From assembly GCA_965113315.1 (NCBI GenBank), contig OZ220363.1: a stretch of 64,000 bases of DNA; one strand, written 5' to 3'. Made by a program: the position numbers and the translations under genes. Below, piece by piece: positions 10,945-40,040 of the stretch (positions are counted from its first letter, which is position 1; each line of letters begins with the position of its first letter). The notes below the pieces were generated by a model. The model was not told the DNA's origin and searched no databases. It worked only from the letters and a program-made list of their open reading frames with translations. This DNA is from Podarcis vaucheri. Lineage: Eukaryota.

Positions 10945-11070
10945 TGGCTCACTTGTACCTCGCAGCATGACTCGCCTCAGGAATGCAGCTGTTGCCTCGC
11001 CCACTATCTATGAGTCAGCGGCAGCCTTGGAATTCTCTCTGCAGGTTTCATTCAGCTGTTGGGCTGGGCC
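10945..11070. promoter_or_regulatory. Putative enhancer upstream of PHLDA2 copy B (paralog of 39913-40040)
   Basis: AGGAATG (TEAD-type) joined to CAGCTG (E-box), TGAGTCA (AP-1) at 11011-11017, and a second CAGCTG. Closely alignable to 39913-40040. Confidence 0.55.
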
Positions 11071-11333
11071 CCGGATAGTGGGAGAAGAAGAGGTAGGCCT
11101 TTCGAATGCAAATGCCACGGGAAAGCCGTTCTTTTGCTGCAGGAAACGTGGAAGACGACTTCACTTTTAGGTTCGCTAAGCTTAGCCGATCAACTCAGTC
11201 ATGCTTTTCTTGTGAGGATGCTTTCAGAGGAGGACATGGTCACCTCAATGTTTGCCCATTTGGGCTGGCTCCCTCACTGGTGTGTTCCCTTCCAAAAAAC
11301 CCAATTTCTTCATGGTCTAGGTTCATAGAGGTA

Positions 11334-11559
11334 CAGTGGTACCTCGGGTTAAGAATTTAATTCATTCTGGAGGTCTGTTCTTAACCTGAAACTGTTCTTA
11401 ACCTGAAGCACCACTTTAGCTAATGGGGCCTCCTGCTGCCACTATGCTGCCAGAGCACAATTTCTGTTCTCACCCTGAAGCAAAGTTCTTCACCCGAGGT
11501 ACTATTTCTGGGTTAGCGGAGTCTGTAACCTGAAGCGTATGTAACCTGAGGTACCACTG
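11334..11559. mobile_element. Tc1/mariner MITE
   Basis: CAGTGGTACCTC...GAGGTACCACTG with TA TSD. Confidence 0.85.
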
Positions 11560-11784
11560 TACATACATGTGCAAGCCAGTCACTTGTTTCCACAAGCCTC
11601 GCCAATCTCAGGAGGAGATTGGTGTGGTAGCATGTAAGCATTCAGAAATACGTTTTGGGTGCCTATCTCAATGCACAAATGGGTGGTGCCAATGCTTTGA
11701 TATGGAGAATGTATTTCATACATTCATTAATTAATTTGAAACATACACATCCTTCTATTCTTCAGAATGGTGCCAAATGTAGGC

Positions 11785-11985
11785 GAGGAGCTTGGTGTAG
11801 TTGTTGTACTGGGAGACCGGGGTTCAAATCCCCTCTTAGCCATGAATTTCACTGGGTGACCTTGAGCCAGGCACCGTCTCTCAGTCAAACGTACCTCACA
11901 GAGTTGTTGTGAGGATAACATGGAACAGAGAGAAAACCATGTATGCCACCTTGAGCGCCTGAGAGATGGGCGCTAAATGCCACAA
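11785..11985 (+). mobile_element. Old tRNA-derived SINE
   Basis: TGGTGTAGTTG A-box, GGTTCAAATCC B-box, and GGGTGACCTTG...ACCTCACAG..TTGTTGTGAGGATAA core. Confidence 0.7.
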
Positions 11986-12703
11986 CATCAGTAATAATAT
12001 GTTAGTGCTTTGGAACAATTTTTGTATTTGGACTATGTCTGTCCGAAGTTGTGTTCCCACCCTGTCCTGCTTTTGAGAGCTAGGAAGGTGACCAACAGCA
12101 GCCTTGGCCTCAAAGCAGTTAAAAGCTCAGCTACTTTCGGTACTGGAATTACAAGAGCACAGCAGTATCACTTGCAGCCACTACTTTAGCTGACAGGGCT
12201 GTGATGGCAGGAGGCTGAGGATTCATAAAATGGGAGAAGGGAAGGGTTCCCTTCCTTTGAAAGGAGAACCTGACTGCTCCAGGCATAGGAAAGGAGCAAG
12301 AAAGGCAGCGGGGGAAATGCCAAGAGTGAGAGCATTCAGAAATGAGACGAAACAAATTGAGGGCTGCAGGAATGCACGTCTACACATGCCCTGCCGTAGC
12401 TTGGAGGGTTAAATTATTAGATGTGCTTTTTCTAGGTGAGACACACACTTGCTATTTCATTTGTGCATTCAAGAGTTTGGTTTCCAAAACCCTCACCTCA
12501 TTGGTACTTTTTTATAGCTCCTGTCACGCATATGGCCATGTTTCTGGGGCTTTGAAAATAGCATAAACAAAATATCGTTTCAGTACTTTGGTTTTGGATT
12601 TTTATTGTAATGCTGACAGTATGTGTTTGTTCTGAACACTCATCCACCCAGATAGATCTATACACACTGATTAAGATTAATTTATCTACCGACTGCTTAA
12701 TAT

Positions 12704-13239
12704 TGTTATGAGTCTTTTTGTGGGGAAAGTAGGCTGTATGCTGAGACCCTTCTAATTCCTGGATCCAGCATGGATTCAATTGCTGGAATAGCCAGGCGAG
12801 CCTGGTAATGGCCTGCTAAGTGCAGGTTGTTAAGAGAAGAAAGGGAGTGGCTCTGTTCCAGAGGGCAAGTGGGTAGGTTTCCCTCCCTGAACTGTCTGTT
12901 AGTTAGAAAGACAAAAGACCAGAGTGGAGAGTAGAGTTGTGCGAGCCAGAAGCTGAAAGAAAAGCTACAGGCTGGAAAGGCAGAGAGAGAGGTATGCTTG
13001 ATTTCTGTTTGAATTAAAGGCTGCGGCTATGGGAGAAACAAGACCCTCTTTTAAGTGTTATTGCTGCAAACCCCTCCATCACAGGCTCAGGTTGTATATG
13101 TGTGTAAATAAACCATATCTCATAAAGACACCACCGTCTCTGCTGTGCCTCATTCCAAAAGGAGTCACAAATCCTGGGTAAGTGCCTGGAACCCCTGGGA
13201 TCTCACACTGCTCAGAGATTGGGGTCTAAGCAGTTTACA
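12704..13239 (+). mobile_element. Old solo LTR-like element
   Basis: Starts TGTTATGAG; contains AATAAACCATAT.TCATAAAGAC. Alignable to the reverse complements of 37303-37857 and 40505-41045. Confidence 0.65.
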
Positions 13240-13749
13240 AATTAAGAACCGTAAATTCACAAAGCTAAAACACCAGCCAGGGTAATGAACGGTGTAAATG
13301 TTTCTGACATTCTACAGAGGGTGTTACTACCTATTGCTATCAAAGGTGTTACCTACACAACCGTGTGTATAATTTTGGGGTACCAACATGCCAACAGTAA
13401 TCCAACACTGCAATACTATGCTTCTCAACTCAGATGTCAATCCTGTTGTGTTCAAGGAGGCTTATTTCCCAGGTAAGTGTGCATAGAATCGCCAGCCTAA
13501 ATTCCTAAGTCTTTGTTGGACAGCTTGCCAGCGAAATTCAATTCAGCGAAATATGAAAAGCTACATAAAAATTAATGTAACAGCTAGGATGGATGGAAGT
13601 GAAAAGGGACTTTGATTGAAGCAACATGTCATGCCTACTTTGTAGCAATGAAGTAATATTGGAAAGTGTGCTTGCAACAGTAGATACTGGGAAATAATTT
13701 CCATGACATCATTTTGATTCTTACTCTTACTTTCAATGACTTGCATCTA

Positions 13750-14280
13750 CTATAATGCACCCTGTGGGGGGCTGCCTTTGGAGAGTTTTCGGAAACTCCA
13801 GCTGGTTCAGAATGCTGCAGCCAGAATTGCTATCGGGGCCAGTTATAGAAAGGATGTGATCCTCATGTTTCAACAACCCCAACAACCAGTCTGTTTCTGA
13901 GCACCATTCATAGTGTGGGATATGCCATAGAAGACTCGGGTCCCAGATTATCTAAAAGACTGCATTCTCCATATAAGTCTCCCTGGGTTTAAAGATCCTT
14001 TCCGTCTGTCCCACCAATGACTATAGCTTGGTTTTTAATGTTTTTGTCCTTGTGTTTTACTACATTTTATTGTATTTCTTTTATTGTATTGTATTTTTAC
14101 TACATTTTATTGTATTTGTGGGAGGCAGTGGAAGACAGAGCAATGGCGTGCTCTGGTCCGTGGGTTCACGAAGAGTCGGACACGACTAAATGACTAAACA
14201 ACAACAACAACAACATTGTATTTCTGCTGTTGTTGTGAGCCACCTTGAACATCATTTGACAGAAAGGCAGGATGCAACGT
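13750..14280 (+). mobile_element. Degenerate L2 3' fragment, interrupted by a BovB tail
   Basis: CGGAAACTCCAGCTGGTTCAGAATGCTGCAGCCAG (RKLQLVQNAAAR), typical of the L2 ORF2 C-terminus. Confidence 0.7.
14118..14214 (+). mobile_element. Severely 5'-truncated RTE-BovB insertion
   Basis: Matches the 3' end of 26409-27378 (AAGAGTCGGACACGACT..(CAA)n); TSD ATTGTATTT on both sides. Confidence 0.85.
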
Positions 14281-17200
14281 TTAAAAAAATGCACACATAA
14301 ATTGGAAACCATTTCACAGTATCTTATTATGGCACCAACATTTAATGCTTTATAGGCAGACAAATGGGCTTCATAGTCTATGGGAAATCTATCCTTAATG
14401 CATGTTAATGAATGGATGGCAAAACCCTGCCATCATTTCCCAAGACCTTCTCCAGTTCAAATGATTTGTATTCATGTGTGTATTCAAAGCAGAATACCAC
14501 ATGGACTATCAACTGTGTCTGTTTGTTTGGTGGACCCAGTAAACTGAATACCTCCAGGATGAGTCCTTGGGTATTTTATACATGGGAAGAGTTGCATTTT
14601 TGAAAGACTTAAACAAAGGAAATGGTGGCGTTTATTTGCCTGGACTGTGAGAACTTTCCTCTGCCTGAAGCCATCAACATTAAATAACCTAATCAGCCAG
14701 TATACTAATATTTATCTGATATGCATACTTCCCCCTAAGCAACCTTTAAGTCTTTCTCAATTACTGTTACCTAACACTGCACTGTACAAATCTTTTAGTG
14801 AGAGGAAACTTGCCATTTCCCATAAAAAAGGGATCATCTGCATGCTATGTATTCATGAGTTTGTTAATTGTGAAAATGAACATAGAGGTTCTTTCACAGA
14901 GTGTCCACTCAGAATCTCCAAAGACGAAAGAAAAGCCCTCATCACGTATTAAGTTTATTACTGGATTATGTCTGTGCGTCAAGGGCAGCTTCAAACATAA
15001 TGCATTTCCTGCGAGGGAGCATGAGCTCTATATGCAGAACGCACACACGGTGATTTCACAGCGTGTAGATGCACTGAAATAAATGAGTCTGCAGTGTATC
15101 GGATGTTGATGTCAACACAGACACCTGACCAATACCAGTGGTTATTCATACACACAGCATTTCCAGGGATATATATATGGTTGTTCATCTTGCATGTATC
15201 ATGGATATAATGTGTGTATCACTTCTTGAGACGTGACACAGAACCGGCCAACAAATATGTCTGGGGATCTTTGCTTTAAAATGCATGACCAGGACGTGTC
15301 TTTGTCTTAACTTCCACTGGGGTTTGTTGTATGCTCACATAAACCATGAAGAGTTGTAGAGGTCTTTTATTCAGCAACAGTTTTGAATTTTTGTCACACC
15401 TGACAAGTGCATTTTAATAAATTCTGTGCCAAAATTTTCTCCCACCTTTTTTTTTTATCACCACACTCCATTAATCAGTGGGAAAAATAACTGCATTTGA
15501 AAATTATCAAATGAAATGGTTGATGAAAATCTTATGGGTGGGGTATAGTTTCTTTTTGTTTGTGTGGCACTTGCCTTATTTATGAGGTGGCCAAGGGTGT
15601 CACAGAATTCTGGATAAAGGTTTACTGGAAAGAAAAACACACAGTACCATTGTTACCTTGTGAGAATAAATTCAAAACCCCTGCACTCATTGAAATTCTA
15701 AAAAAATATCAAGTGGTTTGAGGCTGAGGCAGAAAATTTGAAGGCTCTTTCTCAGAGGAAGAAATTTCAATCAGAAATGTTGCCACCACACTAGTTCGAA
15801 TACTGTAGCAAATATTTTATCTTTTGTTTACATTTTTATTTTATTATCTATCTTTCTATCTATCCTCGTATTCCAATGAAACTGATTACTGCTATGATGT
15901 CTTCCAAACATCCCAGTAAGATTTATGAGTTTAAGAGAATATTTATCACTTACCCCCCAACATTTTTCAAACTCCCCAAAATAACTTAAAATAATGACAT
16001 TTCCAAAATATGCAGAGAATCAGCTGTAAAAGCCCCGCACAACCAATAATTAACAGTATCTAATTTATACGTTCATTTCAACTGATACTGTCAAGTACTA
16101 TTGGTACTGGATTTCCATTCTCCCTCCAACCCTCAGTCTGCTAAATGAGATAAGTCTTGATATTTCATCCTGCTATTCCAAACCAGAGGTAGGGAACCCC
16201 TCAGCCATGGACCAAGATGGCCCATTGAGGTGTCCAATTTGGCTTGTGAAGCCATTTACCCCAAAGAAGGTCCACCCACCAATCAGTTGACATCACTGAT
16301 GGGCAGGAGAACAGGGTTTAACCCTGCATTGGCTGTGCACCCCGCTCCTTATAGAGGGATTCCCAGAAGAATCTGTCCCACTCCTACTCACTCCACTAGA
16401 GTTGCTTGTCCACTCACTTGAAGTAGAAGCATGTCCTGCTTTACACAGTGCTTTTAAGGCAGGCTCCATGCTCCCATTTCAGCCTTTGCAAATCTCCACA
16501 CTCCCCTTTTTAAACACCCCAGGCTTAAAAGGGGAGTGTGTTGAGGCTTGCAAAGCCCTAAAGGGGGAGTGGGGTTAGGGATGCTCACCCCGTTTGGCTC
16601 ATATGTCCAATCCCAATAGGGTTACTTACTACTGCTGTAAACGCATTGAATGTCTAAAACCAGAGATGCCCAGGTCTTTGCACCATCTTTTAATGCTAAA
16701 TGGGGCCATCTGATAGCAGGGGCAGGAGGGCAGGTGCTGGCTCCCTCCCCAGTATAATTCAAGTTCACACACCCTACCTTGCAACTCTCTCCAACCTGTC
16801 TCCTTCCAATTAAAGGGTGTGGCTTAATTTTTCCTACTGACCCTGTGCTGTAATTATAGAGATCTCTGAACCAGTGCAGCGCGGAAAAATGTTCAGGAGG
16901 AAAAGTAAACGCCTAAGTTGTCCTCATAGTAGGGATGTTCAAATGGGACCCCCCCCCCAAAAAAAACAGGTGAATTGGGTGGTGGGATTGAACCTACTGT
17001 TTTTGATGTTGTGTTTACACCAGTTGCACCTCCTTGCAGCAGTGCATCCAACATGAACAGGAAGGAGCGCTATGAGCACGTCTATGCATGTGTGTAGGGT
17101 TCTTATGTGCAAAGAGGAACCTTGGTCAACTGGGGTTCCCTTCTGCACACCTTAGGCATCACCCTGATACACAACCTGCAGCTCAGTCAAAGGCAGGGCC

Positions 17201-19659
17201 AGTGGGATATGCAACAATGTGGAGTGGGTGGGATTTGCAGTCCTGAATGTGTAGTGGGTGGGATTTGCAGACTGAAGGTACACATGAAGGAGGCTCCAGT
17301 GTCTGGCCATAGTAGCAAACACCCCAAGTGTCCAGAAGTCAAAATACCTCAAGTTGATTGTATGTACTGAGGGGAGGAAGGGGTCCCATTGGATTTGACA
17401 TGGCACTAAACAAGTCTCCACTGAAACTAACATGGTTCTTTGTGTTCCTTGTTACTGATTTACTACCAGAGACGAGGCCTTCTTGGTGGTGGTGCCTCAG
17501 TTGTGGAACACCTACCAGAAAGGCTTGCCTGGTGCCTACCTTACTGTCATGTTGTCAGAAGGCAAAGTCTTTTATTTTTCTGAGCTGTTTAGATTCAACA
17601 TTAATCCTACTGACTGTTTCATGCTGCTTTTTACGTAGCTTTTAGTATAATATGTTAACTGTTTTTCTTTTCTTTTTGCAAACCACCCTGGGGATATGGC
17701 TGAAGCTTGATCTAAAATACCTATAACAAAACAGACTGATTCTAATAAACTAATGTTTTAAAATATTTGACCAATGAATGAAATTTGTCGTTCATTTCTG
17801 TTTGCCATAATCAAAAAGCCCACCCTAATTTACATGTTCATATTTTGCATGCATGTAATGTACTTAGCATATTTAAGATTAAGCATATTTCAGATTGATT
17901 TAAATTATTTCAAATGGGTTAACCTTTATTAAGTTATTACCTGACTTCTTTTGTAATAATGGATTATAAATGGAAATGAATAAATATATGGTGATACCTA
18001 TGGAACTGCCATTCAGTTAATATTTTTCCTTCAATAATGTATTAAATTTCAGCCTCTCTTTAATATATTGGAAACCACATTTGTTACCCTGTAGGTAGAC
18101 CGCCCATAGGAGGAATACTGATTCTCCCCAACTACTCTAGCAACAAAGTTAGTGCACCCCAATTTTTAAGAGGCAAAGGTAGTAAAGTGTGGGTGGTTTT
18201 AATATAGGGTGGATAATTACATCAGACAGACACTATTAAAATTAATACATAATATTCAGCACTTATGCCGTGCCTTTCATTTGCAGTGTGTGAACTCCAA
18301 ATGCTGCTTATAATCCTTAAAGCAGCCAGAATGCAGTCTAAAATTTTGGCCAAAAACCCTTGACAAATCACCCTCACCACACTCCTGGCTCCAGCCAGAC
18401 CTCAAAACATACTGCAAAGTGCACTGCTTTCTTTGTATAGACTGTAAGGCTTGCACTGAAAAGGTGCCACCCATTGCAAGCATCACCACTAATGGGACAA
18501 ATTAGCCTCAAATAAAGTCGTATTGCTTTCAGTTGGATGTACAGTGGAATCCTATGCATTTTTAGTCAGAGGTCCCATTGCAAGAAAACACTTCCAAACA
18601 GGCCAGCCATCTTTTGGCTGGGTGTTGTCATGCAGGAAGGATTTTTGTTTTTTAAGAAAAAATAAGAAAGAAACCAGTGTCTTTTTCTAGATTGGAAGGC
18701 CTGCTCTGAGGAGCTTACATGCTCTGGGGAAAAGGAAGGGAAAAAGAGCATTAAGCAGTGTCTTAAATGTGTAAATGTAGTCTGAGACCAAATCTTCAGA
18801 AACGTGTCCTCCTCACGTGAGTAATTAAACAAGAAAAGAAACAGATTGCTTTGGCTGATGACTAGAGTGGGACACACAGGTCTGACCTGAAAAACACAAA
18901 AGCAGTTGGGAAGCTCAGCCACAGTAATTGTGGCCTGACCACTGACTACCTTTCTGGCTTCCCAACATCCATCACTTGAGTAGTGTTGCTGCCAGCAGCA
19001 AGGGTGTGGGTGTGTGGCAATGTGGTGGCCAGGTTAATGAATGGAGTGACAGCTGAGCCCAGGGTTGCCCAAGTCGGGGAGAGCAGACAGCCTCGCCCAT
19101 CATTTCCCACAGTTAGTGGAAGAGCTTGCCTTTGCCATTAGGGTGGAGAGAAAGCGAGAAAGAGAGTCACCCGTCTCCTCCTTAACTTCAACCCAGCTCA
19201 ACCAGTAGGTTGTGTTCTTCCTTCAACCCGTTCCAAGGTGCTTTTAAACTGGGTGTCCAATTTCAGAAGCCAGCATTCATTGAGGAGTTGGATTAAGGGC
19301 AAAGGTATGCAGACACCTTTAATTGCTAGGAGCTCTTCTCTCATGTGCTGTTGCTGCTGCCCTCTCTTGTCGGACCCGTGCCAATTTCTCTTTGTGAAGA
19401 TGCAATTGCACAATTTCAGGATTTATTTATTTTTTAATAAAAGATAAAGAAGAATCTATGTGTGCAACTTGGACAAGGGGAAGGGATGGTAGCCAAAAGC
19501 AGCTGTGCATTCCTTCAAATTCAGGGATAGGGAAGCTGTGGCCATCAAGATGTTCTTGGACTCCAGCTTCCACCAATGGGCAGCGATGTTGTGAGTTATA
19601 GCCCAGTAATATCTGCAGGGCCACAGAGTGCCTATTCCTGCTCCAGTTTCTACTGTAAG

Positions 19660-19850
19660 AAGGACCATAGTTCAGTGGTAGAGAACTATGCAGAAGGCAT
19701 GCAGAAGGTCACAGTTTTAATCCTCAGCATCTCCAGGTAGGGCTGGGAGACATTCCTGCCTGCAACCCTGGAAAGCTGCTACCAGTCAATGTAGACGATA
19801 CTGAACTAGACGGACCATTTGACTGACTTCGGTATCAGGAAACTTGCCAT
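19660..19850 (+). mobile_element. Old tRNA-derived SINE
   Basis: CCATAGTTCAGTGGTAGAG head and CCCTGGAAAGCTGCTACCAGTC body. Related copies near 430, 31125, 43870, 55070 and 61530. Confidence 0.65.

Positions 19851-23146: not shown

Positions 23147-23147
<1 letters not shown>

Positions 23148-23195
<48 letters not shown>
23148..23195. repeat. (ATT)n microsatellite
   Basis: Direct observation. Confidence 0.95.
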
Positions 23196-23196
<1 letters not shown>

Positions 23197-23294: not shown

Positions 23295-23545
23295 CCGTAT
23301 TTTTTGCTCAATTTTTCCCTCCTAAAAAGTAAGCGGAAATGTGTGTGCATCTTATGGAGCGAAAGCAAGCTGCGCTGCTATCCCAGAAGCCAGAACAGCA
23401 AGAGTGATTGCTGCTTTCACTGTGCAGCGATCCCTCTTGCTGTTCTGCCTTCTGAGATTCAGAATATATATTTTTTCTTGTTTTCCTCCTCCAAAAAGTA
23501 GGTGCGTCTTGTGGTCTGGTGCGTCTTATAGAGCGAAAAATACGG
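23295..23545. mobile_element. Tc1/mariner-type MITE
   Basis: TIRs CCGTATTTTTTGCTC / GAGCGAAAAATACGG, with TA on the left flank. Confidence 0.75.
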
Positions 23546-23842: not shown

Positions 23843-24578
23843 TAGAATCATAGAATCATAGAGTTGGAAGAGACCACAAGGGCCATCAAGTCCAACCCCC
23901 TGCCAAGCAGGAAACACCATCAGAGCACTCCTGACATATGGTTGTCAAGCCTCTGCTTAAAGACCTCCAAAGTAGGAGACTCCACCACACTCCTTGGCAG
24001 CAAATTCCACTGTCGAACAGCTCTTACTGTCAGGAAGTTCTTCCTAATGTTTAGGTGGAATCTTCTTTCTTGTAGTTTGGATCCATTGCTCTGTGTCCGC
24101 TTCTCTGGAGCAGCAGAAAACAACCTTTCTCCCTCCTCTATGTGACATCCTTTTATATATTTGAACATGGCTATCATATCACCCCTTAACCTCCTCTTCT
24201 TCAGGCTAAACATGCCCAGCTCCCTTAGCCGTTCCTCATAAGGCATCGTTTCCAGGCCTTTGACCATTTTGGTTGCCCTCCTCTGGACACGTTCCAGTTT
24301 GTCAGTGTCCTTCTTGAACTGTGGTGCCCAGAACTGGACACAGTACTCCAGGTGAGGTCTGACCAGAGCAGAATACAGTGGCACTATTACTTCCCTTGAT
24401 CTAGATGCTATACTCCTATTGATGCAGCACAGAATTGCATTGGCTTTTTTAGCTGCCGCGTCACACTGTTGGCTCATGTCAAGTTTGTGGTCAACCAAGA
24501 CTCCTAGATCCTTTTCACATGTACTGCTCTCAAGCCAGGTGTCCCCCATCTTGTATTTGTGCCTCTCATTTTTTTTGC
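23843..24578 (-). mobile_element. Young 5'-truncated CR1 LINE (ORF2 C-terminus still open, 23920-24549)
   Basis: [25 protein letters not shown]...[25 protein letters not shown]...[11 protein letters not shown] is canonical CR1; (ATTCTATG)n tail at about 23843-23861. Confidence 0.95.
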
Positions 24579-28183: not shown

Positions 28184-28236
28184 TAAGTAAACATACACAG
28201 GAGTGGATGGAATGACTGCTCATATGAACCTAAGTA

Positions 28237-28467
28237 CAGTGGTACCTCAGGTTGAGTACTTAAATCATTCCGGAGGTCTGTTCTTAACCTGAAACTGTTC
28301 TTAACCTGAAGCACCACTTTAGCTAATGGGGCCTCCTGTTGCCGCCACGCAATTTATGTTCTCATCCTGAAGCAAAGTTCTTAACCCGAGGTACTATTTC
28401 TGGGTTAGCGGAGTCTGTAACCTGAAGCGTATGTAACCTGAAGCGTATGTAACCCGAGGTACTACTG
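28237..28467. mobile_element. Tc1/mariner MITE
   Basis: CAGTGGTACCTC...GAGGTACTACTG with TA TSD. Confidence 0.85.
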
Positions 28468-31400
28468 TACATTAGCTGCCGCAGGAGGCATGCTTCACTT
28501 CTGTACTTTTCACCCACAAGGTTTGAAAAATAAGCTATAGGGTTTGGCCTGTCCTCCTGTCCTCCATTTCCAGAGCATCACATTTACTGAAGTCACATGA
28601 TGATATCCCAGAATTCCTCTGGTTTTGTAGCACCCTGCTTGTGGTTAACGCTTAGCTGGAATGAAATATTCAACGCAGCAATAGAGAAATTAAAATAATA
28701 ATTTATTTGTCAGACAAATAAATGAGAGGCACAGTGGTATATGGTTACCAAGCTCTGGCCTGCCCTCCTGCCATTATGGCCAGCACTTATATTCCCTCAG
28801 CCCAGGCCCCTTGCTCCTCCTTTGGCTGCCTCTGTCCAATCAGCCTGGTTGAATTTCCTATTGGCTGATTGCTATAACCAATCCTAAAAGATACACCCAT
28901 ATCCTCCTGTCCTTATATGGAACACAAAGAGCTATATATTGTTACATCTATAAATGACAAATAAGTAGTAATATATCTTACATGTGTCTCAACAAGGAAT
29001 CTTAATTACCAGCTCACCTCTTGCCCTCCTTGCCCTATTGCCTTCTAAAACAAATGGTTAATCTTAAATTTTTATCTTAAACATATGTCAAGGATCTTGA
29101 GTTTCACATCAACATTGAAAGATCTCCTTCATTTGAAGGTTTCCAAACAAATGCCTGACCACTATATATCAGGACTGCTTGGATGGCGTCTTCCTGTCTG
29201 GCAGGGGGGCTAGGCTGGTGGCTGACTTAATTTCAGGATAAATACAACTCTTACAACTATATGAAATAAGAATCTAGCATTTCTTAAATCCTTTGCATAA
29301 TTACATTTAAGCCAATATATTTAATACACAACACAGGTAGCCTCTTAAAAGGAATAAGGCCTTTGTAAAGTAGAAAAAGGAACTCAGTTTAAAACAGTTT
29401 CAAAAGAAGCCTCTTCAGTTTACACCCCCCCTTCAGCCAGCTGCTTTTCCCATTAGCTCTTCCCAACATTTATTGCCCTCTAACTCTCTCAGTTTAAGAA
29501 AGAAACAGCTTTAAAAAGACTTCCCAAAAATGCTCTCCCAAAAATGCTCTCTCTCTGCCAGCTAGATGCTTCTCCATTTGGTCTTGGCCTTTTAACCTTA
29601 GAAAGAAGATCTGGCTCATTTTACTGGGAGGCACATTGGTATTATTTTACTATTTACTCATTCCTAATTATGTTTATCTCTGCCTTTTTTATCTTCTGTA
29701 ACATGTAGGGTCAGTGTCCTCGTTCTCAGCCTGTAATTCCCCCTTTTTACGACTTTGAGAATTGTTTTCTGCTATCAATCAAGGGGCCCCTTGTCTAGGA
29801 GGAAAACATTGCCAGTGTTCTCTAAACAGCTAGTCTTCTTGCCTGGCATGAAACATTTGAAAATCTAAGCCCATTTAATTTAGGAACCTGATCAAGATAT
29901 AAGCCAACATAAGCCTTGATTAAAATGCAGTCTTATGATTAGATGCCTCAGTTTCTTTTCAACCAAAGAACACAAGAGGAGCCCATCTTGTGCAGCATTT
30001 TCCTCTCACAGTGGCCAACCAGATGCCTACGGGAAGTTGATGAGCAGAGCATGAGTGAAATAGCTCTCTCCCACTCCTTATTCTCAGTAACTGGAATTCA
30101 GAGGCATGCTGGAGGAAGTAGACAGCCATTGTCAGCCTTCTCGTCCACGAATTTGTCTACTCAAAATATACTATTGCTGATTCTATATAAAGCATCTGCT
30201 TACAGAAGTCACCACCTGCCACTTTTACATTTGAATTTCGTGTCCTTTTTAACAGACACACCCTCTGCCTTTTTACAGCTCTTTTTTCTTCGTCATTAAA
30301 ACTTTGCTGCGGCCCACATGCATAGCAGAGTGTTGATGAGGCGCATCCCATGCGCACCATTGGGAAAGCGCATAATCTCCTGCTCAGGTGATTGCTAATG
30401 CCTTTCCGTTTCTTAAATTACTGAGGAGGCATTACATCAGGGCATTTCAAAACCCTCAACGGAAGGAAGCAAAGTCTGTGACATGCCCCAGAGAAGCTGG
30501 TTAGCAAGGCGTGTTCAGAGGATCTGAATACCCGATGGAGGAGGAAGATGAAAAGTGCAACTTGACGACATTGCTCCACCCACCAATATTGAATTAGCAA
30601 ACACCAAGGGGCCAAACCTGCTGTGCCATGCTTATCTCATCAACTTAAAAGGAAAAGCAGAGGTTCCAACATGGAGCACTTGGGACCTGTAAATGCCTTG
30701 TGCTGTCAAGCTATTCTACTTGTTCTGTTCTGGTTTCTTTGGTGAAAATAATAAATTACCCAACCATATGCTTACTGGGGCATCTTTCAGGCAGGAGTGA
30801 ATCCATAAATCATTAGGCACACCAAGTGGATCAGTCGATGCCTGCATTAGAACAATTTATCATATGCAAGAGGGTGTGTGCAATTTTCAGTCGCAAGCAT
30901 GCATGCTAATGTATTTACACTATGCGATACACGCAAGCAGATTTTCAGTCTAGAGAAGGCAAGAGAGAAGGAAGGAAAGGATTCCTTCCACTGAGAAATC
31001 CCATAGGAACAATTTCTCCCTTGAGCTACCTCCCACCCACCCCTCTTCTTGTATACATACTGCTATAGTGTTGAGGCTGCAGCCTTACACACAGTTATTT
31101 CTAAGGAGCACCTAAATCTCTGGTCATAGCTCAGTGTCGCCAAGCATAGGCTTTGCATGAAAATAGTCCCAGGGTCAAACCTTGCCATCTCTAGCTAAGA
31201 GAACCAAAAAGCAGTTGGAGGGAAAGACATATTCCCGAGACATGCCCCCCACCCCAAGAGCTGCTGCCAGAGTAGAGTATATAACAGTAACAGCAGGTGG
31301 AGCAGGGAAGAGACACCTTTCTGACATGGGCATTGCTGTGGCTCACCTACCCCAGCCCTATCATGAAAGGGGGTCTGGAGGGAGGGAGCCTTAGTATAAA

Positions 31401-32116: not shown

Positions 32117-32970
32117 TGGTACATGACACCAGTCAAGTTTGCAAAAATCTATCATTTGCCCGATAATAAATGTTGGAAATGTAAGGAAACTGAAGGTACA
32201 TTCTTTCACCTTTGGTGGACGTGCCCCAGGATTAAGGCTTTCTGGGAAATGATATATAATGAATTGAAAAAGGTATTTAAATATACCTTCCTGAAGAAAC
32301 CAGAGGCCTTTCTCCTGGGCATTGTTGGCCAATTGGTGCCGAAGAAGGACAGAACTTTTTTCATGTATGCAGCAACAGCAGCAAGAATACTCATCGCAAA
32401 GTATTGGAAGACACAAGATTTACCCACTCTGGAAGAATGGCAAATGAAGGTGATGGACTACATGGAACTGGCAGAAATGACTGGCAGAATCCGTGACCAG
32501 GGAGAAGAGTCGGTGGAAGAGGATTGGAAGAAATTTAAAGACTACTTGCAGAAATACTGTAAAATTAATGAATGTTAAAATGATGTTGGAATGGAAAATA
32601 AGTGGTATTGGCAAAAAGATTATTAAGAATATGCAAATATGGATTGACAATGGTTGAAAATACATAGTTATAATAGGCTAAAATACTGAGTAAAGATAAA
32701 TGATAGAGGGTAAGGATTTGCTGAAAGGAATTTTAAACGGGAATACAAAAGGGGAGGTGTGAGGAAGCCAGGAAACAAGTAAATGAACTATAAGACATGA
32801 AATACTGATTTTTCTTTTTTCTTAACTCTTTTTTTTTACTTTTTGTGTGATTTGTCTTTGGTATTTTTGTATCCTTTTTTTCTTTTTTCTACTCTATTTT
32901 TTATGTTTAAATTTTGTAACCTTTTTATTGTTTCTAAAATTCTAATAAATATTATCTTAAAACAACAACA
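32117..32970 (+). mobile_element. Young 5'-truncated L1-clade LINE (ORF2 CCHC C-terminus, 3'UTR, tail)
   Basis: CWKCKETEGTFFHLWWTC zinc knuckle, ARILIAKYWK; AATAAA plus (CAA)n tail; 18-bp TSD ACAATATACTRTATCTAT (32099-32116, 32971-32988). Confidence 0.9.
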
Positions 32971-34681
32971 ACAATATACTGTATCTATACTGCCAAAATA
33001 ACACATCTCTAAGGCCATGATCTTTCACAGCCATGATACTGTAGTGGTTTGCAGCTTGAGTGAATGTGATCCTGAACTTGGTAAACTGAAAGTGGTTTGG
33101 CTCATTGAATTTTTCCTTCAGTGGGCTTTGCATCAAACACCTTGCAAATTTCCTTGCAGGCAATTTGCTCCCAGTATGTGGTGCAGGAGGGTTTCACCAG
33201 GGAAAACAGTGTCATGTTTAAAATAAGGAGTCATATCACTCTTTGGAAAAGTGAACTGTGTGGAATTGTGCCAAGTGCCAATCATCCAAAGCAGTTTGCA
33301 GGAAATGCTGCGAGCTGGTCATGCCATCATAATCAGGAGAGTCCACAGAACAGGAATTGCAGGCCAGCTTGCCAGGAATTTGAAGTCAATGCTAAGAATG
33401 TACGTAGTGTGAGAGTGTGTCAAGGATACAGCAGAGCTGAAGTTACAAATGTGCAGTGATCTTCATGCACCTAACTATCCTATAGTCTTGGAATATAAAC
33501 ACAGTAGGGTAGGAACTTTATGTTGTTGGTTTTTGGGGGGCGGGGTAGAGAAATGGTTGTAGTTAAAGTATTTGTCCCCCCCCCCCCCAGTCTGGCCTGT
33601 GACAGCTGCTATTATTATGTAGATCCGAATGTATTTTTTCTTAGACTTGGAATGTGCTGGTTGCCTGCATTTGTAAGTAATCCAGTTCCCAAAGCACCAA
33701 CCCAGGCAAGCTACATGGAAAGTAATGGAAGTTTTTAATTGCAGTGTCAGGTGGTGACAGTAATTGTCACAATCCCTGGACTCTGGCTCCTCCCTTAATT
33801 AGGCGGAAGCAGCTCTGCAAATCCACTCTCCCAACGAGCAAAGTATCATATAAATAGCACAGCCTTCCTGAACATGGTGTCCTCCAAATGCTGTTGAACT
33901 ACAATTCCCATCATGCCACCATTACCAGAGGAGTCGGCAGAGCAGGATTTTCCTGCGGCTGACACTCTGGTTTCTATTTAGCCTACTGTATGAAGATAAG
34001 AATCACATTTGTTACTCCGCCCACATTTGTCTCTAGTCCCATGCACTAAATACCTCCGACCCTATTCTTCACTACCGTAGAACATTTCCTGTCGGCAAAA
34101 GTGACCCACAGGTCAAAAAAAGTCCCCTACCCCTGATCTATAGTGTAAACATTTTAGTACAGCCGCCATTATTTTTATTTTTATTAAATTTATTGGCTGC
34201 TTTTTTGCCACAGGCAACTTAAAAGAACTTACACACAGAAATCCACCGAAAGAGCTGCAAATCCCAGAATGCACAGGCCCAATCCAGCTCCAGGCTGCAA
34301 CCTTATGCCCACTTCCCTGGGAGTAAGCCCTACTGATTCTCTGAGGAGACGTGTATAAGACTGCACTGTAGTTGTGCACAGTGGATGAATGGTCACAGAT
34401 GGGAATAGATATCCCCACCCACAGCAAAAGACACAGGCAGCCACCCCAGGGATGCTTAGATGCATGGGCTGCATACTTGGAAGGCAGCTTTTACAGCTGC
34501 CTTTTCTTTGTCGCTTTTCTTTATCTTTCTTAATGACCAGCATGCCTGAGTCTAGGAGGCACATAGTCTTCTGCTCTGTTAACGGAGAAATCTGAGGGCT
34601 CCCTTGGACAAAAAAACAAGAACACCAGCTAGGAATACCAGAGCAAAACAGCAGCCAGTAGGCTTGGTCTTTATTGAAGAC

Positions 34682-35225
34682 TGTCGTGACAGGACTCCCA
34701 CCTGCCACCAGGTGAAACAAGAAGGAAGCCCCCCCCCCCCCCGAACAAAAGAGAACCCAAAATTTTATTAGCTGCTAATCCCCATATTACACCCCCCCCA
34801 AACTACATCACTAATACATCATGGTTACATCATGAAAGGGTGGCAGTAATCTGAGCATCCTGGACCCTGCCCAATGGTTCCCCTTGCCCTCCACCAAACA
34901 CCCATAAGTGTAACAAAAGAGACATTTACATTTTCCTGTTTCCCAGCCACATTAACCACACCATTTTCTCTTCATCTGGGTTTGTTATTTCTGGAATGGC
35001 TACCTGTCTGGCACTCAGGTATCAGGATGCCAGGAATAATCACTCAGGCAGAGGGGCTGCTGAGTAGCTGAGCTCACATATCTATATGAATTTCTGAAAG
35101 TTTCCCAGTGAGCCAGTACATAGACACATTTATCAGTGAATTCTAACATTTGGTATTGTGCAGCAGAGGCCCTTTGAAAAGATAGGAAGAAACTGTGATG
35201 AAGTGTTTTGTGGGGACAAGTCACA
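34682..35225 (-). mobile_element. Possible solo LTR
   Basis: TG...CA termini and a minus-strand AATAAA near the left end; no clean TSD. Confidence 0.4.
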
Positions 35226-37302
35226 AAAGTCACATAAGTGATTGTGCTTATTTTGGTGGTGGGCTGCATGTGCATGATATCTGCTGGAGGGGCACTCCCC
35301 CCCACACCTATACATAAATTCCTGCAACAGCTCTCTGTATGAACATGGGTCACAGACACACATGCCGTCCTGTTTGCTTTTCTGTATTATACCGGCTTGT
35401 TTTTTCCAAAAGCCACAGTCCCAGTTTCTGCTCCCTCCCCCTCCCCTGTCTTCTCCATGATCTGTGTTGCCAGCTATAAAACAATCTCTTTCTCATGTCT
35501 GTGTGCACATCTCTCTCGATGCCACATTCCTGGCCTGGTGAACTGGGCAATAAATACCTCTCTTTCCGCAGTAATGAAAAACCTGCCATTCAGGATTTGC
35601 ACTTGCACTTTGGACCTTTATTCCTTTGGCTCAGCAGATAATTCTGAATGGTCGGTCCTTTTAGCGTTTCTTTGCTACTGCCATTAAAACGTTTAGATTA
35701 AATCTACACTTTGAGAGCGAAAGCGAAACAATCCTCAAGTGCCAATTCGCTTTGCACGGTCTATGAACACCTACAGGGAGCCATCAAAATGTCACAAAAC
35801 AGTGGGCAAGATTAAGGCTGGATTCTTTCTCCAAGAAGGCAGGACTGACCCCTGACACTGGATGTAAAGGAAGGAGCTTTGACCAGGGCAGTCATAGGGG
35901 GAAACTATTATGAAACTATGAAAGGGACACCTTTCATCTGCTCATCCTACCAACCAGGGAAGAAGCCTGCGTAACTCGGACTCTCTCATACTGCACTTTT
36001 GAATCCTGCTTGGCCTTAGCAAAAGGGCAAGGTGGTTAATGATAGGATATGTTGGTTTCTACTGTCCTAACGAAAACTTAAGTAAATTCATTGACGGGGC
36101 TGTGGCAAGACAAGGCGATCCCATGAGCTGACCCCCTCCCACAGAACTTGCAAAGCACCTGCCGCACCCAAGAACTCCCTGCTGCTGTGAAAACAGTGCT
36201 TTTGTACATGCCTTCGACTCTTTCACTGCTGCAGTGCAGAAGCCACATTGGCTCTGTCGAATACAATTGGCCTAGTTACCACTTTCCAGCTGTCTAGCCA
36301 GCAGGCAATCGTAGGGTAAGGTCAACGAGAAGGCCACCCTTTAAGAACCAGCCTTTACCTTCCATCCAGGGGTGGGTTGGGCAGCAGGCAGATTATCCTG
36401 CAGTCAACACACCCCTCTGTGATGGGCAGGGGTAGGGTTCCTCCTTTAAGCTCCTTACTTGTTCTGCACTTCACTCATCTATTTGACTCCAAAGGACCAA
36501 AATTTATTAAAAGGTGGGTTGACGGCCATTGTGTGTTCTCACCAGAATCGCTTATGGAAACCATATTTTTTAAAAAACCCAGAAACCTAAATAACATCTG
36601 GCTCTGTAATTGCCAGCTACACTTGCACCAGAGCAGCCAAGTGCAAGCATGATTTGGAAAAAAAATATTGCTGCTTTAAATGTAAAAATGAATTTTTTAT
36701 AATAGAAACCTGTATTTTCAATGCATTTAAGAAGCAGGAAAAGGCAAGATTCCTTCAGCTAAAAGCCTTTCACCCTGTCCTGCATGACATTTGCTCATGC
36801 AGGACCTCCCTGCCCCCGCCCCCAAACACACCCCAAAAATGAATACAGCTCCAAGATTCATTTGTTTCAATGTGTTCAAAAATGCTGCCTGGATTCTAAT
36901 CTTCTTAATTCCCTTTCCTGTTTTTGAAAAACTTACTTTTATCAGAATTGATGGGCTCCTTTGTCAACTGGGCATGGATTGAGAAACCAGCCAACTGTTA
37001 AAATGTAGGCAAATCCGGCTGTCAAAGCTCATGCAGGTGTACAGGATGGAAGCAACTTCTGCTTCTCTGCATGATAGAATGCCCTTGTGTGAGATATGCT
37101 TTCAACACAGGAGATTCGACATACTCATATACCAACTCATATACCAGCAGAAAGGTTGTTCATAATGGAGCTTTGGAGCTTTTGATTATGGAGCTGGTTT
37201 CAGGTTAAGTAGCCCAAACTTTAGAAACTAGACAATTTCTGGCACACCAATTATTGCATTTCCCATTCTCAAGACTCCTCCATTTCTCAATAAGCATGAT
37301 GT

Positions 37303-37857
37303 TGTTGTACACCATCCCAATCTCCAAGTGATACAAAACTCGAGGGATTCCAGGTAGCGCTTATCCAGGGTTCATGTTTCCTTTGGAATGAGATATAGTG
37401 GAAATGGTTGCGTCTTTATGATATATGGTTTAATAACACATATATACCACCTGAGCCTATGATAGAGGGGTTCACAGTGTTAACATTCCAAGAGAGTTTT
37501 GCTTCACCCCTAGCCACAGCCTTGGATGTGAGCAGAAATCAGGCATCTCTCCTTCACAGGCTTCAGCCTGCTTCTTCCTCCAGCTTCTAGCTCTCTCACA
37601 CACAACTCAACTCTGGTCTTTGTCTTTTCTAACTACCTACCAATCAGTTGTGAGAGGGTGGGCACCCATTTGTTATCTGGCACATAGCCACTTCCTTTGT
37701 TACCTTAATGACCCATATTTAGAAGACCATTATCACACCAGAAAGCTAGCCTGGCTATTTCAGGAATTTGAACCATTGCTTAGATTTTAACACTTGCTGT
37801 ACCCAAGCATTAGAAGAGTCTTGGCATACAGCCTTCCCCACCACCAAACTCATAACA
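37303..37857 (-). mobile_element. Old solo LTR-like element (same family as 12704-13239)
   Basis: TG...CA termini, 4-bp flanks ATGT/ATAT, similarity to the two other copies. Confidence 0.65.
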
Positions 37858-37877
37858 ATATCCTCAATGCGATGAAT

Positions 37878-38515
37878 AGGGATGGAGAAGACATTTGATT
37901 TTGTTTGCATTTAAATGAGAACCTACCTAATTTGCACTTCTCAATCCAATATGTGAACTGAAACACAGGTATTCTTCAAAATCCACACTTGTCTGAATTT
38001 TGAAGTACAGTTCTCCAACCAAAGAGTACGTGCAAAATGCATATTGGGGTAAATGTGCATAAAACGTGTGTATTAGTGAAAATAACATACAGAATGCAAG
38101 ATATTAGGAGAACTAGCTTGCAATAATTTGTCTATTAGTCAAAACTGCCTACAAATATATGCTTATTACTATAGTTTTGCACTAAAAAGCTGACAAACCT
38201 TGATGAGGATTTATGTTTAATTTTAAAACGCTGATTGCTGCAGAAATGTGGAGAACTGAATTTAAGACTCGAAAAATGAGAAACTTAAGCTGTGTACACA
38301 CCATACCTTTAAAGCACATCTCAAACATGTTCATCCCCACCGCAAGGATCCTGGGAACTGTAGTTTGTTAAGGGTGCTGGGAATTGTAGCTATGTGAGGG
38401 GTAAACTACAGTTTCAGGGTACTTTTTGTGAGTTTTTTGTGTGCATGTGCATGCACATGCTTTAAGTGTATAATGTGTACACAGCCCTAGAGAACCAAAA
38501 TGACAGATTTGTCCA
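37878..38515. mobile_element. Old DNA-transposon-like repeat with a nested palindromic MITE (38289-38487)
   Basis: Reverse-complement similar to 59-410; the insert has GCTGTGTACAC...GTGTACACAGC termini. Confidence 0.55.
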
Positions 38516-39912
38516 GTGAGATACTATCAGTTCATCACCCCAGAAATGCTGCTGCCTCTTGCTTCACAGCTGTGGATCCCCAAACAATTCCCCAAACCCC
38601 TTATGCAGTCTGCTTTGTTCAGGACCACCCAACAACAAAAAACACGAGCAAGTGTAGGTAGAGGTGTAGGCTGACTGGAGGAACAGCACTGGCATCATCT
38701 GAATGACCAGTATGTGCTAGTATGAATTGGGTGCGGCCTTGGAAAGCAGCACAATACCGAAAGTCAAGAATCCCATAGCAAACGTCTGGTTCCCAGGAAA
38801 GAAAACCCATTATTTCAAACAGGACATCTGGAGCAGGGCGTGTGCAAACATGTGCCTGCCTGCACACCTGACCTTTGCTCAGCCTTGATCTGGGTTTCAT
38901 TCATGCCTTCTTTCTGTTGCCTTTCCAAGTGCACAAAGTCAATTCAAAGCCTGTCCAAGGGCTCTGACTGCAACGCAGCCCGTTTGTACTGAAGGTAGCT
39001 GGATAAAAATATAAAAAGGGTAGGGAGGGAAGTGGAAACGTTGATTTAAAAAATAGTGAGACATTGAGGGACTCTCCTGCGGGTGTGGGCACCATTTAGC
39101 AAAAGTTGGTTGCAATTAAATCCTATGGACAACAATGGAAAGGGAATGCACTTAGCTGTGTGGCTAATTTTTGTAAGATTGTGTACCTTCCTTCCCCGTT
39201 CCTCATTTAGGGAGCCAAGGCTCATGGGTGGCTGCTGATGACTAAAAGCTGTGCAAGAGGGGCACTGTGTTCTGCTCTCAGGTCAGAAGGCGATGGACAC
39301 AAGAGTGGGGAACTGGGCCTGGCCAGCAAGCCAGATGCTTATCTTGACCACCACCTCCAGGTCAGGTATGACACGTGGGTGGAGCCACCCACTTTGTTAG
39401 TCACCTGACATCACTATGACACCAGCTGACTCAACTTTACCCACATGTGGGCAATGGCATGGTGCTTTGCGCTAAGAGTCCGTTAAACCAGTAGGAGAAC
39501 TGGGTGGCTGCCTAGGGTGGCAAACTTCCAGGGTAGCCAACCTGATGCCAAGTTTCTGTGTTCAGGTTTTTATTAAAGTTTTTTCATGACACAATATAAA
39601 GATAGAAAACTAATGTAAATTAGAAAATGAAAACAAAAACTGCTACAAAAAGTAAAAATAAGGTATGATGTCCTCTCTTAAAGGTAGTTCTTAACTTTCA
39701 TAGAAGGTAGTAGCCCCTCCCAGCTCTTATCTGGGATCTTTCCTTTCTCCTTCCAGCCTCTCACCCTGGGAACCTGACAGAAGTTTCTGGACTACAACTC
39801 ACATCATCCCTGACCATTGGTTGTGCTGGCAGGGGCTCTTGGGAGTTGTAGTCCACCATTTTCTGGAGGGCACCATGTTGGTTACCTCTGCTCTCGCCCT
39901 CACCCTCGCTCC

Positions 39913-40040
39913 CTGGCATGCCTGCACTTCACAGGATGACTGGCCCCAGGAATGCAGCTGTTGCCTAGCCCACTATCTACGTCTGAGTCAGCTGCAGCCT
40001 TGGAACGCCTCCCAGATTTCATTCAGCTGCTGGGCTGTCT
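39913..40040. promoter_or_regulatory. Putative enhancer upstream of PHLDA2 copy A (paralog of 10945-11070)
   Basis: AGGAATGCAGCTG at 39948-39960 and TGAGTCA at 39984-39990, in the same motif order as the 10945-11070 element. Confidence 0.55.

What the first reader, a model, noticed from the sequence alone, without database searches (positions are those of the whole stretch)
10945..40040. Paralogous ~120-bp TEAD/E-box/AP-1 element upstream of each PHLDA2 copy, in direct rather than inverted orientation
Seen: 10945-11070 and 39913-40040 align closely. The 48-nt core CAG(C/G)ATGACT(C/G)GCC(T/C)CAGGAATGCAGCTGTTGCCT(C/A)GCCCACTATCTA has 4 mismatches, followed by TGAGTCAGC.GCAGCCTTGGAA and TTTCATTCAGCTG.TGGGCTG. 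They sit about 3.4 kb and 1.5 kb upstream of copies B and A, in flanks I could not align, with no TIR, TSD or tail. Both read on the + strand although the genes are inverted, so one must have been flipped relative to its gene. Known: GGAATG is the TEAD motif, TGAGTCA is AP-1, and TEAD+AP-1 composites typify YAP/MAPK-responsive enhancers. Inference: a co-duplicated enhancer under selection in both copies, plus a second rearrangement event.
Basis: partly seen in the sequence, partly recalled or inferred. Interest (0 to 1): 0.7.

Follow-up and report, generated by a model that had tools for sequence, protein, structure and literature searches.

The report
Twin PHLDA2 enhancer, one copy flipped
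A 115-base stretch that genome searches find only twice in this lizard lies upstream of two back-to-back copies of the growth-control gene PHLDA2; it is likely a control switch kept from an old gene duplication that probably spans lizards and snakes, and one copy of the switch was likely flipped in place afterwards.

Summary
Window 10954-11066 and 39923-40037 match at 98 of 117 columns, both on the + strand, and four genome searches found no third copy. The two PHLDA2 genes share five blocks: a new outer block Y (62%), the element E (88% core), the core promoter (79%), the coding exon (99.5%) and a 3' exon (71-79%). All five keep their order, and only E is reversed. So E most likely belongs to the original inverted duplication, and one copy was inverted locally; which one is unknown. 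Databases hold paired, near-identical PHLDA2 records in geckos, skinks, lacertids, anguids, agamids, anoles and snakes. The pairs group by species, which points to an old duplication whose coding exon is kept alike by gene conversion. E carries TEAD, AP-1/NF-E2-type and CAGCTG motifs in both copies, a cluster found nowhere else in 264 kb. Human PHLDA2 is a reported TEAD2 and FOSL1 target. Enhancer activity is untested. Conservation across species is weakly suggested for one copy and was not seen for the other. Later conversion of the core, rather than selection, remains possible.

The parts
10954..11066 (+). Element E1, core (upstream of copy B, reversed relative to that gene)
   Evidence: 98 of 117 columns match E2; GGAATG 10980, CAGCTG 10986 and 11053, TGAGTCAGC 11011
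10929..11147 (+). E1 with weakly matching shoulders
   Evidence: 155 of 229 columns; shoulders 21 of 35 and 45 of 67; the right shoulder alone is marginal, 4 of 300 shuffles reach it, and the left alone is not significant
39923..40037 (+). Element E2, core (upstream of copy A, same direction as that gene)
   Evidence: GGAATG 39949, CAGCTG 39955, 39989 and 40024, TGAGTCAGC 39984
39898..40110 (+). E2 with shoulders
12300..12508 (-). Outer block Y1, inverted match to Y2; likely the far end of the duplicated unit of copy B
   Evidence: 124-129 of 215 columns; reached by 0 of 100 shuffles, 0 of 300 and 0 of 542 real genomic tiles; one genome hit; found post hoc
38719..38925 (+). Outer block Y2
   Evidence: one genome hit
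7508..7589 (-). Core promoter of copy B (GC box and TATA-like site), homologous to that of A
   Evidence: 63 of 90 columns, 0 of 300 shuffles
41474..41561 (+). Core promoter of copy A
   Evidence: RNA reads in the 41474-41660 bins of run X24
6929..7357 (-). PHLDA2 copy B, coding sequence with stop (142 aa)
41746..42177 (+). PHLDA2 copy A, coding sequence with stop (143 aa)
   Evidence: (PH domain PF00169)
6900..7475 (-). Homogenised tract of copy B (part of 5' leader, coding exon, up to the splice donor)
   Evidence: 566 of 569 ungapped columns match A; longest exact run 266 nt
41635..42206 (+). Homogenised tract of copy A
4008..4425 (-). Likely 3' untranslated exon of copy B, inverted match to that of A
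   Evidence: 309 of 450 columns; two genome hits; GT donor and AG acceptor seen; splicing itself not shown
44374..44801 (+). Likely 3' untranslated exon of copy A
47201..47422 (-). Likely last coding exon of the neighbouring MFS transporter gene (SLC22A18 by position; name recalled)
   Evidence: MFS_1 E 6e-05, below the curated cut-off; frame ends in a stop

Best explanation
E is present twice, once upstream of each inverted PHLDA2 gene, and is likely a signal-responsive enhancer that was copied with the gene in an old inverted duplication, likely kept by selection in both copies, and likely turned round in one copy by a small local inversion. Steps: (1) shown, a 6-8.5 kb unit Y-E-promoter-coding exon-3' exon exists twice, head to head, with E alone reversed. 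(2) Inferred, copy B is the added one, since copy A runs in the same direction as NAP1L4 and CDKN1C. (3) Inferred, the duplication predates the squamate radiation, and gene conversion has kept only the 576-nt first exon alike. (4) Inferred, the inversion of E lies between Y and the core promoter, so it spans at most about 4.7 kb in B or 2.5 kb in A, and is tolerated because enhancers work in either orientation (established knowledge). (5) Predicted, TEAD/YAP at GGAATG and an AP-1 or NF-E2-type dimer at TGAGTCAGC, 31-35 nt apart, with bHLH factors at CAGCTG, raise PHLDA2 transcription after growth-factor, mechanical or stress signals. My odds: paralogy 0.9, local inversion 0.75, constraint by selection 0.7, TEAD/AP-1 enhancer of PHLDA2 0.55.
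For: Copy number: two hits with either copy as query. A 33-nt core pattern with 3 mismatches gives 2 hits and 0 in the control. A 22-nt pattern with 2 mismatches gives 6 hits; the 4 others score 7-15 bits against 145-148. The same kind of search on a repeat of similar age gives 4300 candidates. Order and orientation of the blocks. Uneven divergence: core 89 of 101 against shoulders 66 of 102 (Fisher p 1e-4) and Y 124 of 201 (p 1e-6), with bounds set by eye. The shoulders are about as diverged as Y, as expected if they share its age. Motifs: TEAD plus AP-1 plus two CAGCTG within 120 nt occurs only at E1 and E2 in 264 kb, and TEAD plus AP-1 alone at 10 loci. Every one of these sites in E1 is intact in E2. 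Age and conversion: in 18 same-species pairs, 27 of 36 proteins are strictly nearest their own partner, 7 tie and 2 are nearer another lacertid (tree). Coding sequences A and B differ by 2 substitutions and one codon while the introns share only one 116-column hit. Gene order. Papers: TEAD2 ChIP-qPCR at the human PHLDA2 promoter region (PMC10325985, passages); FOSL1 activates PHLDA2 (review PMC13204451, passages); composite TEAD and AP-1 sites at YAP/TAZ enhancers (PMC8561301, passages).
Against: No activity, chromatin or binding data. No contig of E1 itself was laid in any of 4 runs of related organisms; only E2 contigs cross-mapped, though the DNA-like run there covered just 9 of 30 bins. 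The lower divergence of E2 contigs in organisms C and E (5 of 381, 3 of 259, 3 of 309, against 36 of 1234, 8 of 270, 19 of 937 nearby) is not significant (p 0.09, 0.22, 0.32). Raw RNA reads give about 1-fold depth on E2 and none on E1. The motif cluster was defined after looking at E. The spacing of the two main sites differs by 4 nt between copies. Y is weak and was picked post hoc. A high-identity core with decayed shoulders is also what an old conversion tract looks like. No outgroup DNA was reachable, so I could not test whether the human TEAD2 site is orthologous to E.
Confidence: 0.6

Rival explanations
1. The core is alike because of later gene conversion or a separate small copying event between the two upstream regions, not because of selection; E may be functional in one copy only, or in neither.
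For: The locus shows conversion (566 of 569 columns in the first exon). The core (88%) is more alike than any other unconverted block (62-79%). Direct orientation is what a separate copy could give. E1 was not seen in other organisms' contigs.
Against: E sits in the same slot, between Y and the promoter, in both copies. Its shoulders are as diverged as Y. The 3' exon also keeps 79% in its distal half without sign of recent conversion. The core has a dozen scattered differences and no exact run over 20 nt.
Confidence: 0.2
2. E is a real regulatory element but not a private enhancer of its nearest gene: both copies act on both PHLDA2 promoters from the shared 34-kb spacer, or on NAP1L4, SLC22A18 or CDKN1C.
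For: Both elements lie between the two head-to-head promoters. The neighbours lie within about 110 kb.
Against: Each copy stayed within 1.5-3.4 kb of its own promoter, inside the duplicated unit.
Confidence: 0.1
3. E is the relic of a transposable element or other dispersed repeat that inserted twice independently, which would explain the free orientation.
For: Direct orientation; the window is rich in repeats. The genome search tool warns that no match does not prove rarity, and a profile search of the whole genome was not possible.
Against: Two copies only in four searches, against 4300 candidates for a repeat 65-78% alike. No hit in 200 kb of flank or near PHLDA1 and PHLDA3. No terminal inverted repeat. 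Two insertions of a two-copy element into matching slots of one gene pair are improbable.
Confidence: 0.05
4. E is an exon or structured part of a non-coding RNA transcribed from the spacer.
For: Contigs of runs guessed to be RNA cover E2, one as an isolated 266-nt contig (these runs were chosen for holding E2). Raw RNA reads give 0.8-1.1-fold depth of one strand over 39962-40177.
Against: No Rfam match in the window. Folding z-scores are +0.3 to +1.3 on all four strands. No splice joint at E2 and no reads at E1. The low signal fits divergent transcription from promoter A.
Confidence: 0.05

Closest known systems
Composite TEAD and AP-1 enhancers of YAP/TAZ target genes (PMC8561301, passages)
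   Same: A TEAD site with an adjoining AP-1 site, near a gene whose human orthologue is reported as a YAP-TEAD2 target (PMC10325985) and a FOSL1 target (PMC13204451, citing a paper I did not read).
   Different: Those are defined by ChIP and activity, which are lacking here. E adds two or three CAGCTG boxes, and its AP-1 site extends to an NF-E2/MARE-type site (recalled consensus).
Inverted repeats around FLNA and EMD, and primate X palindromes (PMC8327919, passages; the 2007 paper on FLNA-EMD was seen only as cited there)
   Same: Inverted arms kept alike by gene conversion, arms closer within than between species, a spacer that could invert, and great age.
   Different: Here the alike arm is only about 576 nt and equals the first exon of a gene; promoters, upstream elements and 3' exons have diverged. 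The human orthologue is autosomal (recalled). The FLNA-EMD repeats are not orthologous in all species, whereas here the same gene is paired. Spacer inversion is untested here.
Gene pairs with conversion limited to part of the gene, such as HBA1/HBA2 or SIGLEC11/SIGLEC16 (recalled, no call)
   Same: Near-identical coding tract with diverged flanks and separate regulation.
   Different: Those are mammalian or primate cases. A retained upstream module that is reversed in one copy is not part of them as I recall.

Membership tests
TEAD/AP-1 composite enhancer | TEAD consensus site | tested here: met
   GGAATG at 10980 and 39949; the motif is recalled
TEAD/AP-1 composite enhancer | Adjoining AP-1 site | tested here: met
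   TGAGTCA at 11011 and 39984, 31 and 35 nt from the TEAD site
TEAD/AP-1 composite enhancer | Sequence constraint across species | tested here: inconclusive
TEAD/AP-1 composite enhancer | Open chromatin, H3K27ac and binding of TEAD/YAP and AP-1 | not testable with these tools
   No run on record as a chromatin library among the 24 listed (most have no library on record)
TEAD/AP-1 composite enhancer | Orientation-independent activation of a promoter | not testable with these tools
   Needs a reporter assay
Transposable element | Many dispersed copies | tested here: not met
   Two copies; positive control 4300 candidates
Transposable element | Terminal inverted repeats | tested here: not met
   18 and 5 inverted pairs listed in the two upstream regions; none brackets E closely, and the two that span E1 are 17-nt pairs at 76-88%
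Transposable element | Target-site duplication or tail | not tested
   No dedicated test; none evident on reading
Structured non-coding RNA | Rfam match or folding better than shuffles | tested here: not met
   0 Rfam matches; z +0.28 to +1.33
Inverted gene pair under gene conversion | Inverted, near-identical arms with diverged flanks | tested here: met
   566 of 569 columns; promoter 79%, 3' exon 71-79%, introns largely unalignable
Inverted gene pair under gene conversion | Copies closer within than between species | tested here: met
   Protein level only: 27 of 36 strictly, 7 ties, 2 exceptions inside Lacertidae (tree)
Inverted gene pair under gene conversion | Same position and orientation of both copies in other species | not testable with these tools
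   Protein records give no coordinates; paired NCBI records show the same longest-contig length
Inverted gene pair under gene conversion | Spacer found in both orientations | not tested
   No long reads were laid across the arms

The most novel reading that the evidence does not exclude
All squamates, perhaps all lepidosaurs, carry an inverted pair of PHLDA2, a dosage-sensitive placental growth gene in mammals. A 0.6-kb coding arm has been homogenised for some 190 million years or more (date recalled) while each copy kept its own version of a TEAD/AP-1 enhancer. One enhancer survived an in-place inversion, and crossover between the arms toggles the 34-kb spacer, swapping promoters and enhancers between the two 3' exons.
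Probability: 0.3. Interest if true: 0.75.

Novelty: new variant of a known kind. Interest (0 to 1): 0.55.

Why it matters
If right, the pair marks a working PHLDA2 enhancer without any chromatin data, and gives a natural test of orientation independence: the same module, kept in both orientations beside the same gene. The wider point is the gene pair. Raised Phlda2 restricts fetal growth in mice (PMC4174529, abstract), and squamates evolved live birth many times (recalled). An old duplicate with identical protein but separate regulation would let dosage and expression evolve freely, which can be compared between egg-laying and live-bearing lineages. It would also be an unusually old case of concerted evolution confined to one exon.

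Tried and rejected
Exact core pattern in metagenome contigs: 0 matches. PHLDA2 relatives in metagenome contigs: 4 loci at 33-44% identity, not PHLDA2, not used. Sequencing-run search: no RNA holder listed. Earlier findings of the scan: nothing in 3 look-ups. The three-copy block at 12700-13223, 37316-37861 and 40515-41029 looked like an outer anchor of the duplication but is a dispersed repeat. An A-rich direct match 8741-8796 / 39617-39671 beat 60 shuffles but not the reversed-tile control (20.3 against a maximum of 21), and was rejected as low complexity. No further anchors were found in 112 interval comparisons between promoter, E and Y. No inversion breakpoints were found. A profile of E finds nothing near PHLDA1 or PHLDA3, 20 kb each. 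RNA structure was rejected. A profile search of the whole genome was not available, so a very diverged third copy is not excluded. Not in print as far as searched: PHLDA2 + lizard + duplicat gave 2 papers and PHLDA2 + squamate gave 1, all on fish; five terms on conversion in squamates gave 3 papers, unrelated by title and not read; PHLDA2 / reptile / two copies, any two, gave 766 papers, and none of the 20 listed holds both PHLDA2 and reptile. The library lacks most subscription journals, and supplements were searched for one paper only.
Full report
1. The observation. The window compared with itself gives a direct match of 10954-11066 with 39923-40037, 98 of 117 columns, E 8.7e-27. The 48-nt core has 4 mismatches as stated. 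The two PHLDA2 genes are head to head: copy B on the - strand (7357-6929) and copy A on the + strand (41746-42177). E2 therefore points the same way as its gene and E1 the opposite way. With a transition-tolerant matrix the match extends to 10929-11147 / 39898-40110, 155 of 229 columns. On their own the shoulders are marginal: 4 of 300 shuffles reach the right one, and 276 of 300 reach the left. The nearest protein relatives are lacertid lizards.

2. It is not a dispersed repeat at the sensitivity available. Either copy as a DNA query finds 2 places in the 1.61-Gb genome, from 2 candidates. A 33-nt core pattern with up to 3 mismatches finds the same 2 and the reversed control finds 0. A 22-nt pattern from the second half, with up to 2 mismatches, finds 6 where about 1 is expected by chance; the 4 others score 7-15 bits with a profile of E, against 145-148 for the two copies. 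As a positive control, a block present three times in the window at 65-70% identity gives 4300 candidates and 43 listed matches. The tool warns that no match does not prove rarity, and a whole-genome profile search was not possible.

3. Anatomy of the duplicated unit. Besides E the two genes share four blocks, all inverted. The first exon tract, 6900-7475 / 41635-42206, matches at 566 of 569 ungapped columns. The core promoter, 7508-7589 / 41474-41561, matches at 63 of 90 columns and beats 300 of 300 shuffles. A likely 3' untranslated exon, 4008-4425 / 44374-44801, matches at 309 of 450 columns and has two genome hits; GT donors and AG acceptors are present. The introns share only one 116-column hit, which may be a repeat fragment; I did not test it. 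The fourth block is new: Y, 12300-12508 / 38719-38925, 124-129 of 215 columns. It was one of 14 comparisons, where 0 of 100 shuffles reached it. It was the best hit after E among 124 tile comparisons (24.9 against a control maximum of 21). It beat 300 of 300 and 542 of 542 real genomic tiles under two scoring schemes, and the direct orientation scored at background. Each copy of Y has one genome hit. Y is weak and post hoc, but it lies 1.0-1.2 kb beyond E on both sides. The order Y-E-promoter-exon 1-exon 2 is thus the same in both copies and only E is reversed. The simplest reading is one inverted duplication followed by a local inversion bounded by Y and the promoter. No breakpoints were found.

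4. Which copy is new, and which element flipped. The order is NAP1L4 (+), PHLDA2-B (-), PHLDA2-A (+), an MFS transporter gene (-), CDKN1C (+) (gene names assigned from Pfam family and recalled synteny). On contig C29 a second NAP-family gene and a PHLDA paralogue also run in the same direction, 8 kb apart. So A has the ancestral direction and B is the added copy (inference). This does not tell which E flipped. Near-identical inverted arms allow the spacer to invert, as in primate X palindromes (PMC8327919, passages), and that would swap upstream regions between the genes. It would not change the orientation of E1 relative to E2, so a local event is still needed.

5. The duplication looks old and converted. 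Two cluster look-ups of 10 proteins each list paired PHLDA2 records for Lacerta, three Podarcis, Zootoca, Lerista, Tiliqua, Hemicordylus, Heteronotia, Sphaerodactylus, Eublepharis, Elgaria, Pogona, Anolis, Rhineura, Thamnophis and Ahaetulla. In 12 of the 14 database pairs aligned the two proteins differ internally. The other two differ only by an N-terminal extension. The Zootoca pair compares two annotation versions and the Sphaerodactylus pair a gene model with a different end, so these count less; for identical records, two loci are inferred from distant accession numbers. Varanus, Pituophis, Pantherophis and Notechis did not show a clear pair in these lists. In 18 same-species pairs (window, tuatara and Varanus included), 27 of 36 proteins are strictly nearest their own partner, 7 tie, and 2 are nearer another lacertid; all exceptions stay inside lacertids or the two snakes. 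The tree of 38 rows shows no split into an A clade and a B clade, though 15 of 31 inner branches are open. In the window the coding sequences differ by 2 substitutions and one codon, and 98.6% of third positions are G or C. Selection on the protein cannot hold synonymous sites and the 5' leader alike while the introns decay, so gene conversion is the likely cause. Tuatara has two records 6 residues apart. Three crocodilians show one RefSeq record each, the two same-species turtle pairs checked differ only in the start codon, and the 15 bird records listed of 86 show no clear pair. Single copy outside lepidosaurs is suggested, not shown. Protein records give no position or orientation.

6. What E likely does. 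Both copies hold GGAATG followed at once by CAGCTG, then TGAGTCAGC 31 or 35 nt after the GGAATG, then another CAGCTG. In 264 kb around the locus, TEAD plus AP-1 within 120 nt occurs at 10 loci, and with two CAGCTG only at E1 and E2; the pattern was chosen after seeing E. The core is 89 of 101 identical against 66 of 102 in the shoulders and 124 of 201 in Y. TEAD with an adjoining AP-1 site is the common grammar of YAP/TAZ enhancers (PMC8561301, passages). In human cells TEAD2 was found by ChIP-qPCR at the PHLDA2 promoter region (PMC10325985, passages and one supplementary primer row; also the review PMC13169595, passages). A review reports that FOSL1 activates PHLDA2 (PMC13204451, passages; primary paper not read). 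The PHLDA2 promoter responds to heregulin more than to EGF in MCF-7 cells (PMC4682858, passages). None of this locates the human site on an orthologue of E. The 4-nt spacing change argues against a rigid composite. TGAGTCAGC also fits the NF-E2/MARE-type consensus (recalled), so a stress-responsive input is an alternative.

7. Reads from related organisms. Twenty of 24 listed runs hold E2 or part of it, from 10 studies and five coded organisms. Four runs were laid on each side. At E2, organisms C and E show differences at 39907, 39918 and a 2-nt insertion after 40036, and none is listed in 39919-40035, but 59 rows were hidden. Counting on 14 well-laid contigs that I picked from the 24 shown, the contigs over E2 are about half as diverged as their neighbours, which is not significant (p 0.09, 0.22, 0.32). 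At E1 no contig of the element itself was laid in any of the 4 runs; the two pieces at 10963-11010 are the E2 contigs by length and depth. The DNA-like run covered only 9 of 30 bins there, and the tool says a hole proves nothing, so loss of E1 in that organism is neither shown nor excluded. Raw RNA reads show copy A's 5' region transcribed (3.3-fold in the A-specific bin), about 1-fold depth of the opposite strand over E2, and none over E1. Expression of copy B was not tested. There is no Rfam match and no folding signal.

8. Verdict. The element is real, two-copy and part of the duplicated unit, and the odd orientation is best explained by a local inversion. That it is a selected TEAD/AP-1 enhancer is plausible and indirectly supported, not shown; an old conversion patch is the main rival. 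A retained paralogous enhancer is a known kind of thing. The less expected result is the squamate-wide PHLDA2 pair homogenised in one exon, which four literature searches did not find described. Raised Phlda2 limits fetal growth in mice (PMC4174529, abstract), which gives the pair biological weight. One passage of PMC4333379 was seen and confirms only that Cdkn1c, Slc22a18 and Phlda2 are neighbours in mouse. I score interest 0.55.

Noticed in passing
window 12700-13223, 37316-37861, 40515-41029: Three copies of an old dispersed repeat of about 520 nt, 65-70% alike, with 4300 candidates in the genome; class not determined.
   Followed up: partly
window 4177-4434 (-): The likely 3' exon of copy B is matched at 95% over 86 residues by the end of a Podarcis lilfordi gene model (P0047), so that exon is kept and attached to PHLDA2 in another lacertid.
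   Followed up: partly
window 6929-7357 and 41746-42177: 98.6% of third codon positions are G or C in both copies, which would fit GC-biased conversion; no single-copy control was measured.
   Followed up: partly
P0040 and P0166: Tuatara has two PHLDA2 records differing at 6 residues; the duplication may be older than squamates.
   Followed up: partly
window 38558-39313: No depth in any of 4 runs of related organisms, including over block Y2; may be a filter hole or a lineage difference.
   Followed up: no
window 39962-40177 and 41042-41365: Low one-strand RNA signal (0.8-1.8-fold) opposite to gene A, as from divergent transcription.
   Followed up: partly
window 39425: Another site of the TGAGTCAGC type, about 560 nt left of the one in E2; 13 such sites in 264 kb.
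   Followed up: no
window 3125-3341, 11331-11561, 28234-28473, 45232-45439: A family of short elements 81-90% alike; the copy at 11324-11569 has 28-nt inverted ends and lies just right of E1.
   Followed up: no
window 23920-24549 (-) and 32123-32578 (+): Open frames of 209 and 151 residues that resemble the ends of LINE reverse transcriptases (resemblance recalled, not searched).
   Followed up: no
window 5437-5539, 23380-23458, 53372-53519, 62185-62371: Self-complementary short elements, likely miniature inverted-repeat elements.
   Followed up: no
G000:C29:32063830-32078333: A PHLDA paralogue and a NAP-family gene in the same direction, mirroring the NAP1L4-PHLDA2 arrangement; no match to E in 20 kb there.
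   Followed up: yes
window 6324-6432 and 43897-44011: A 116-column inverted match between the two introns, 67% alike; repeat fragment or relic of the duplication.
   Followed up: no
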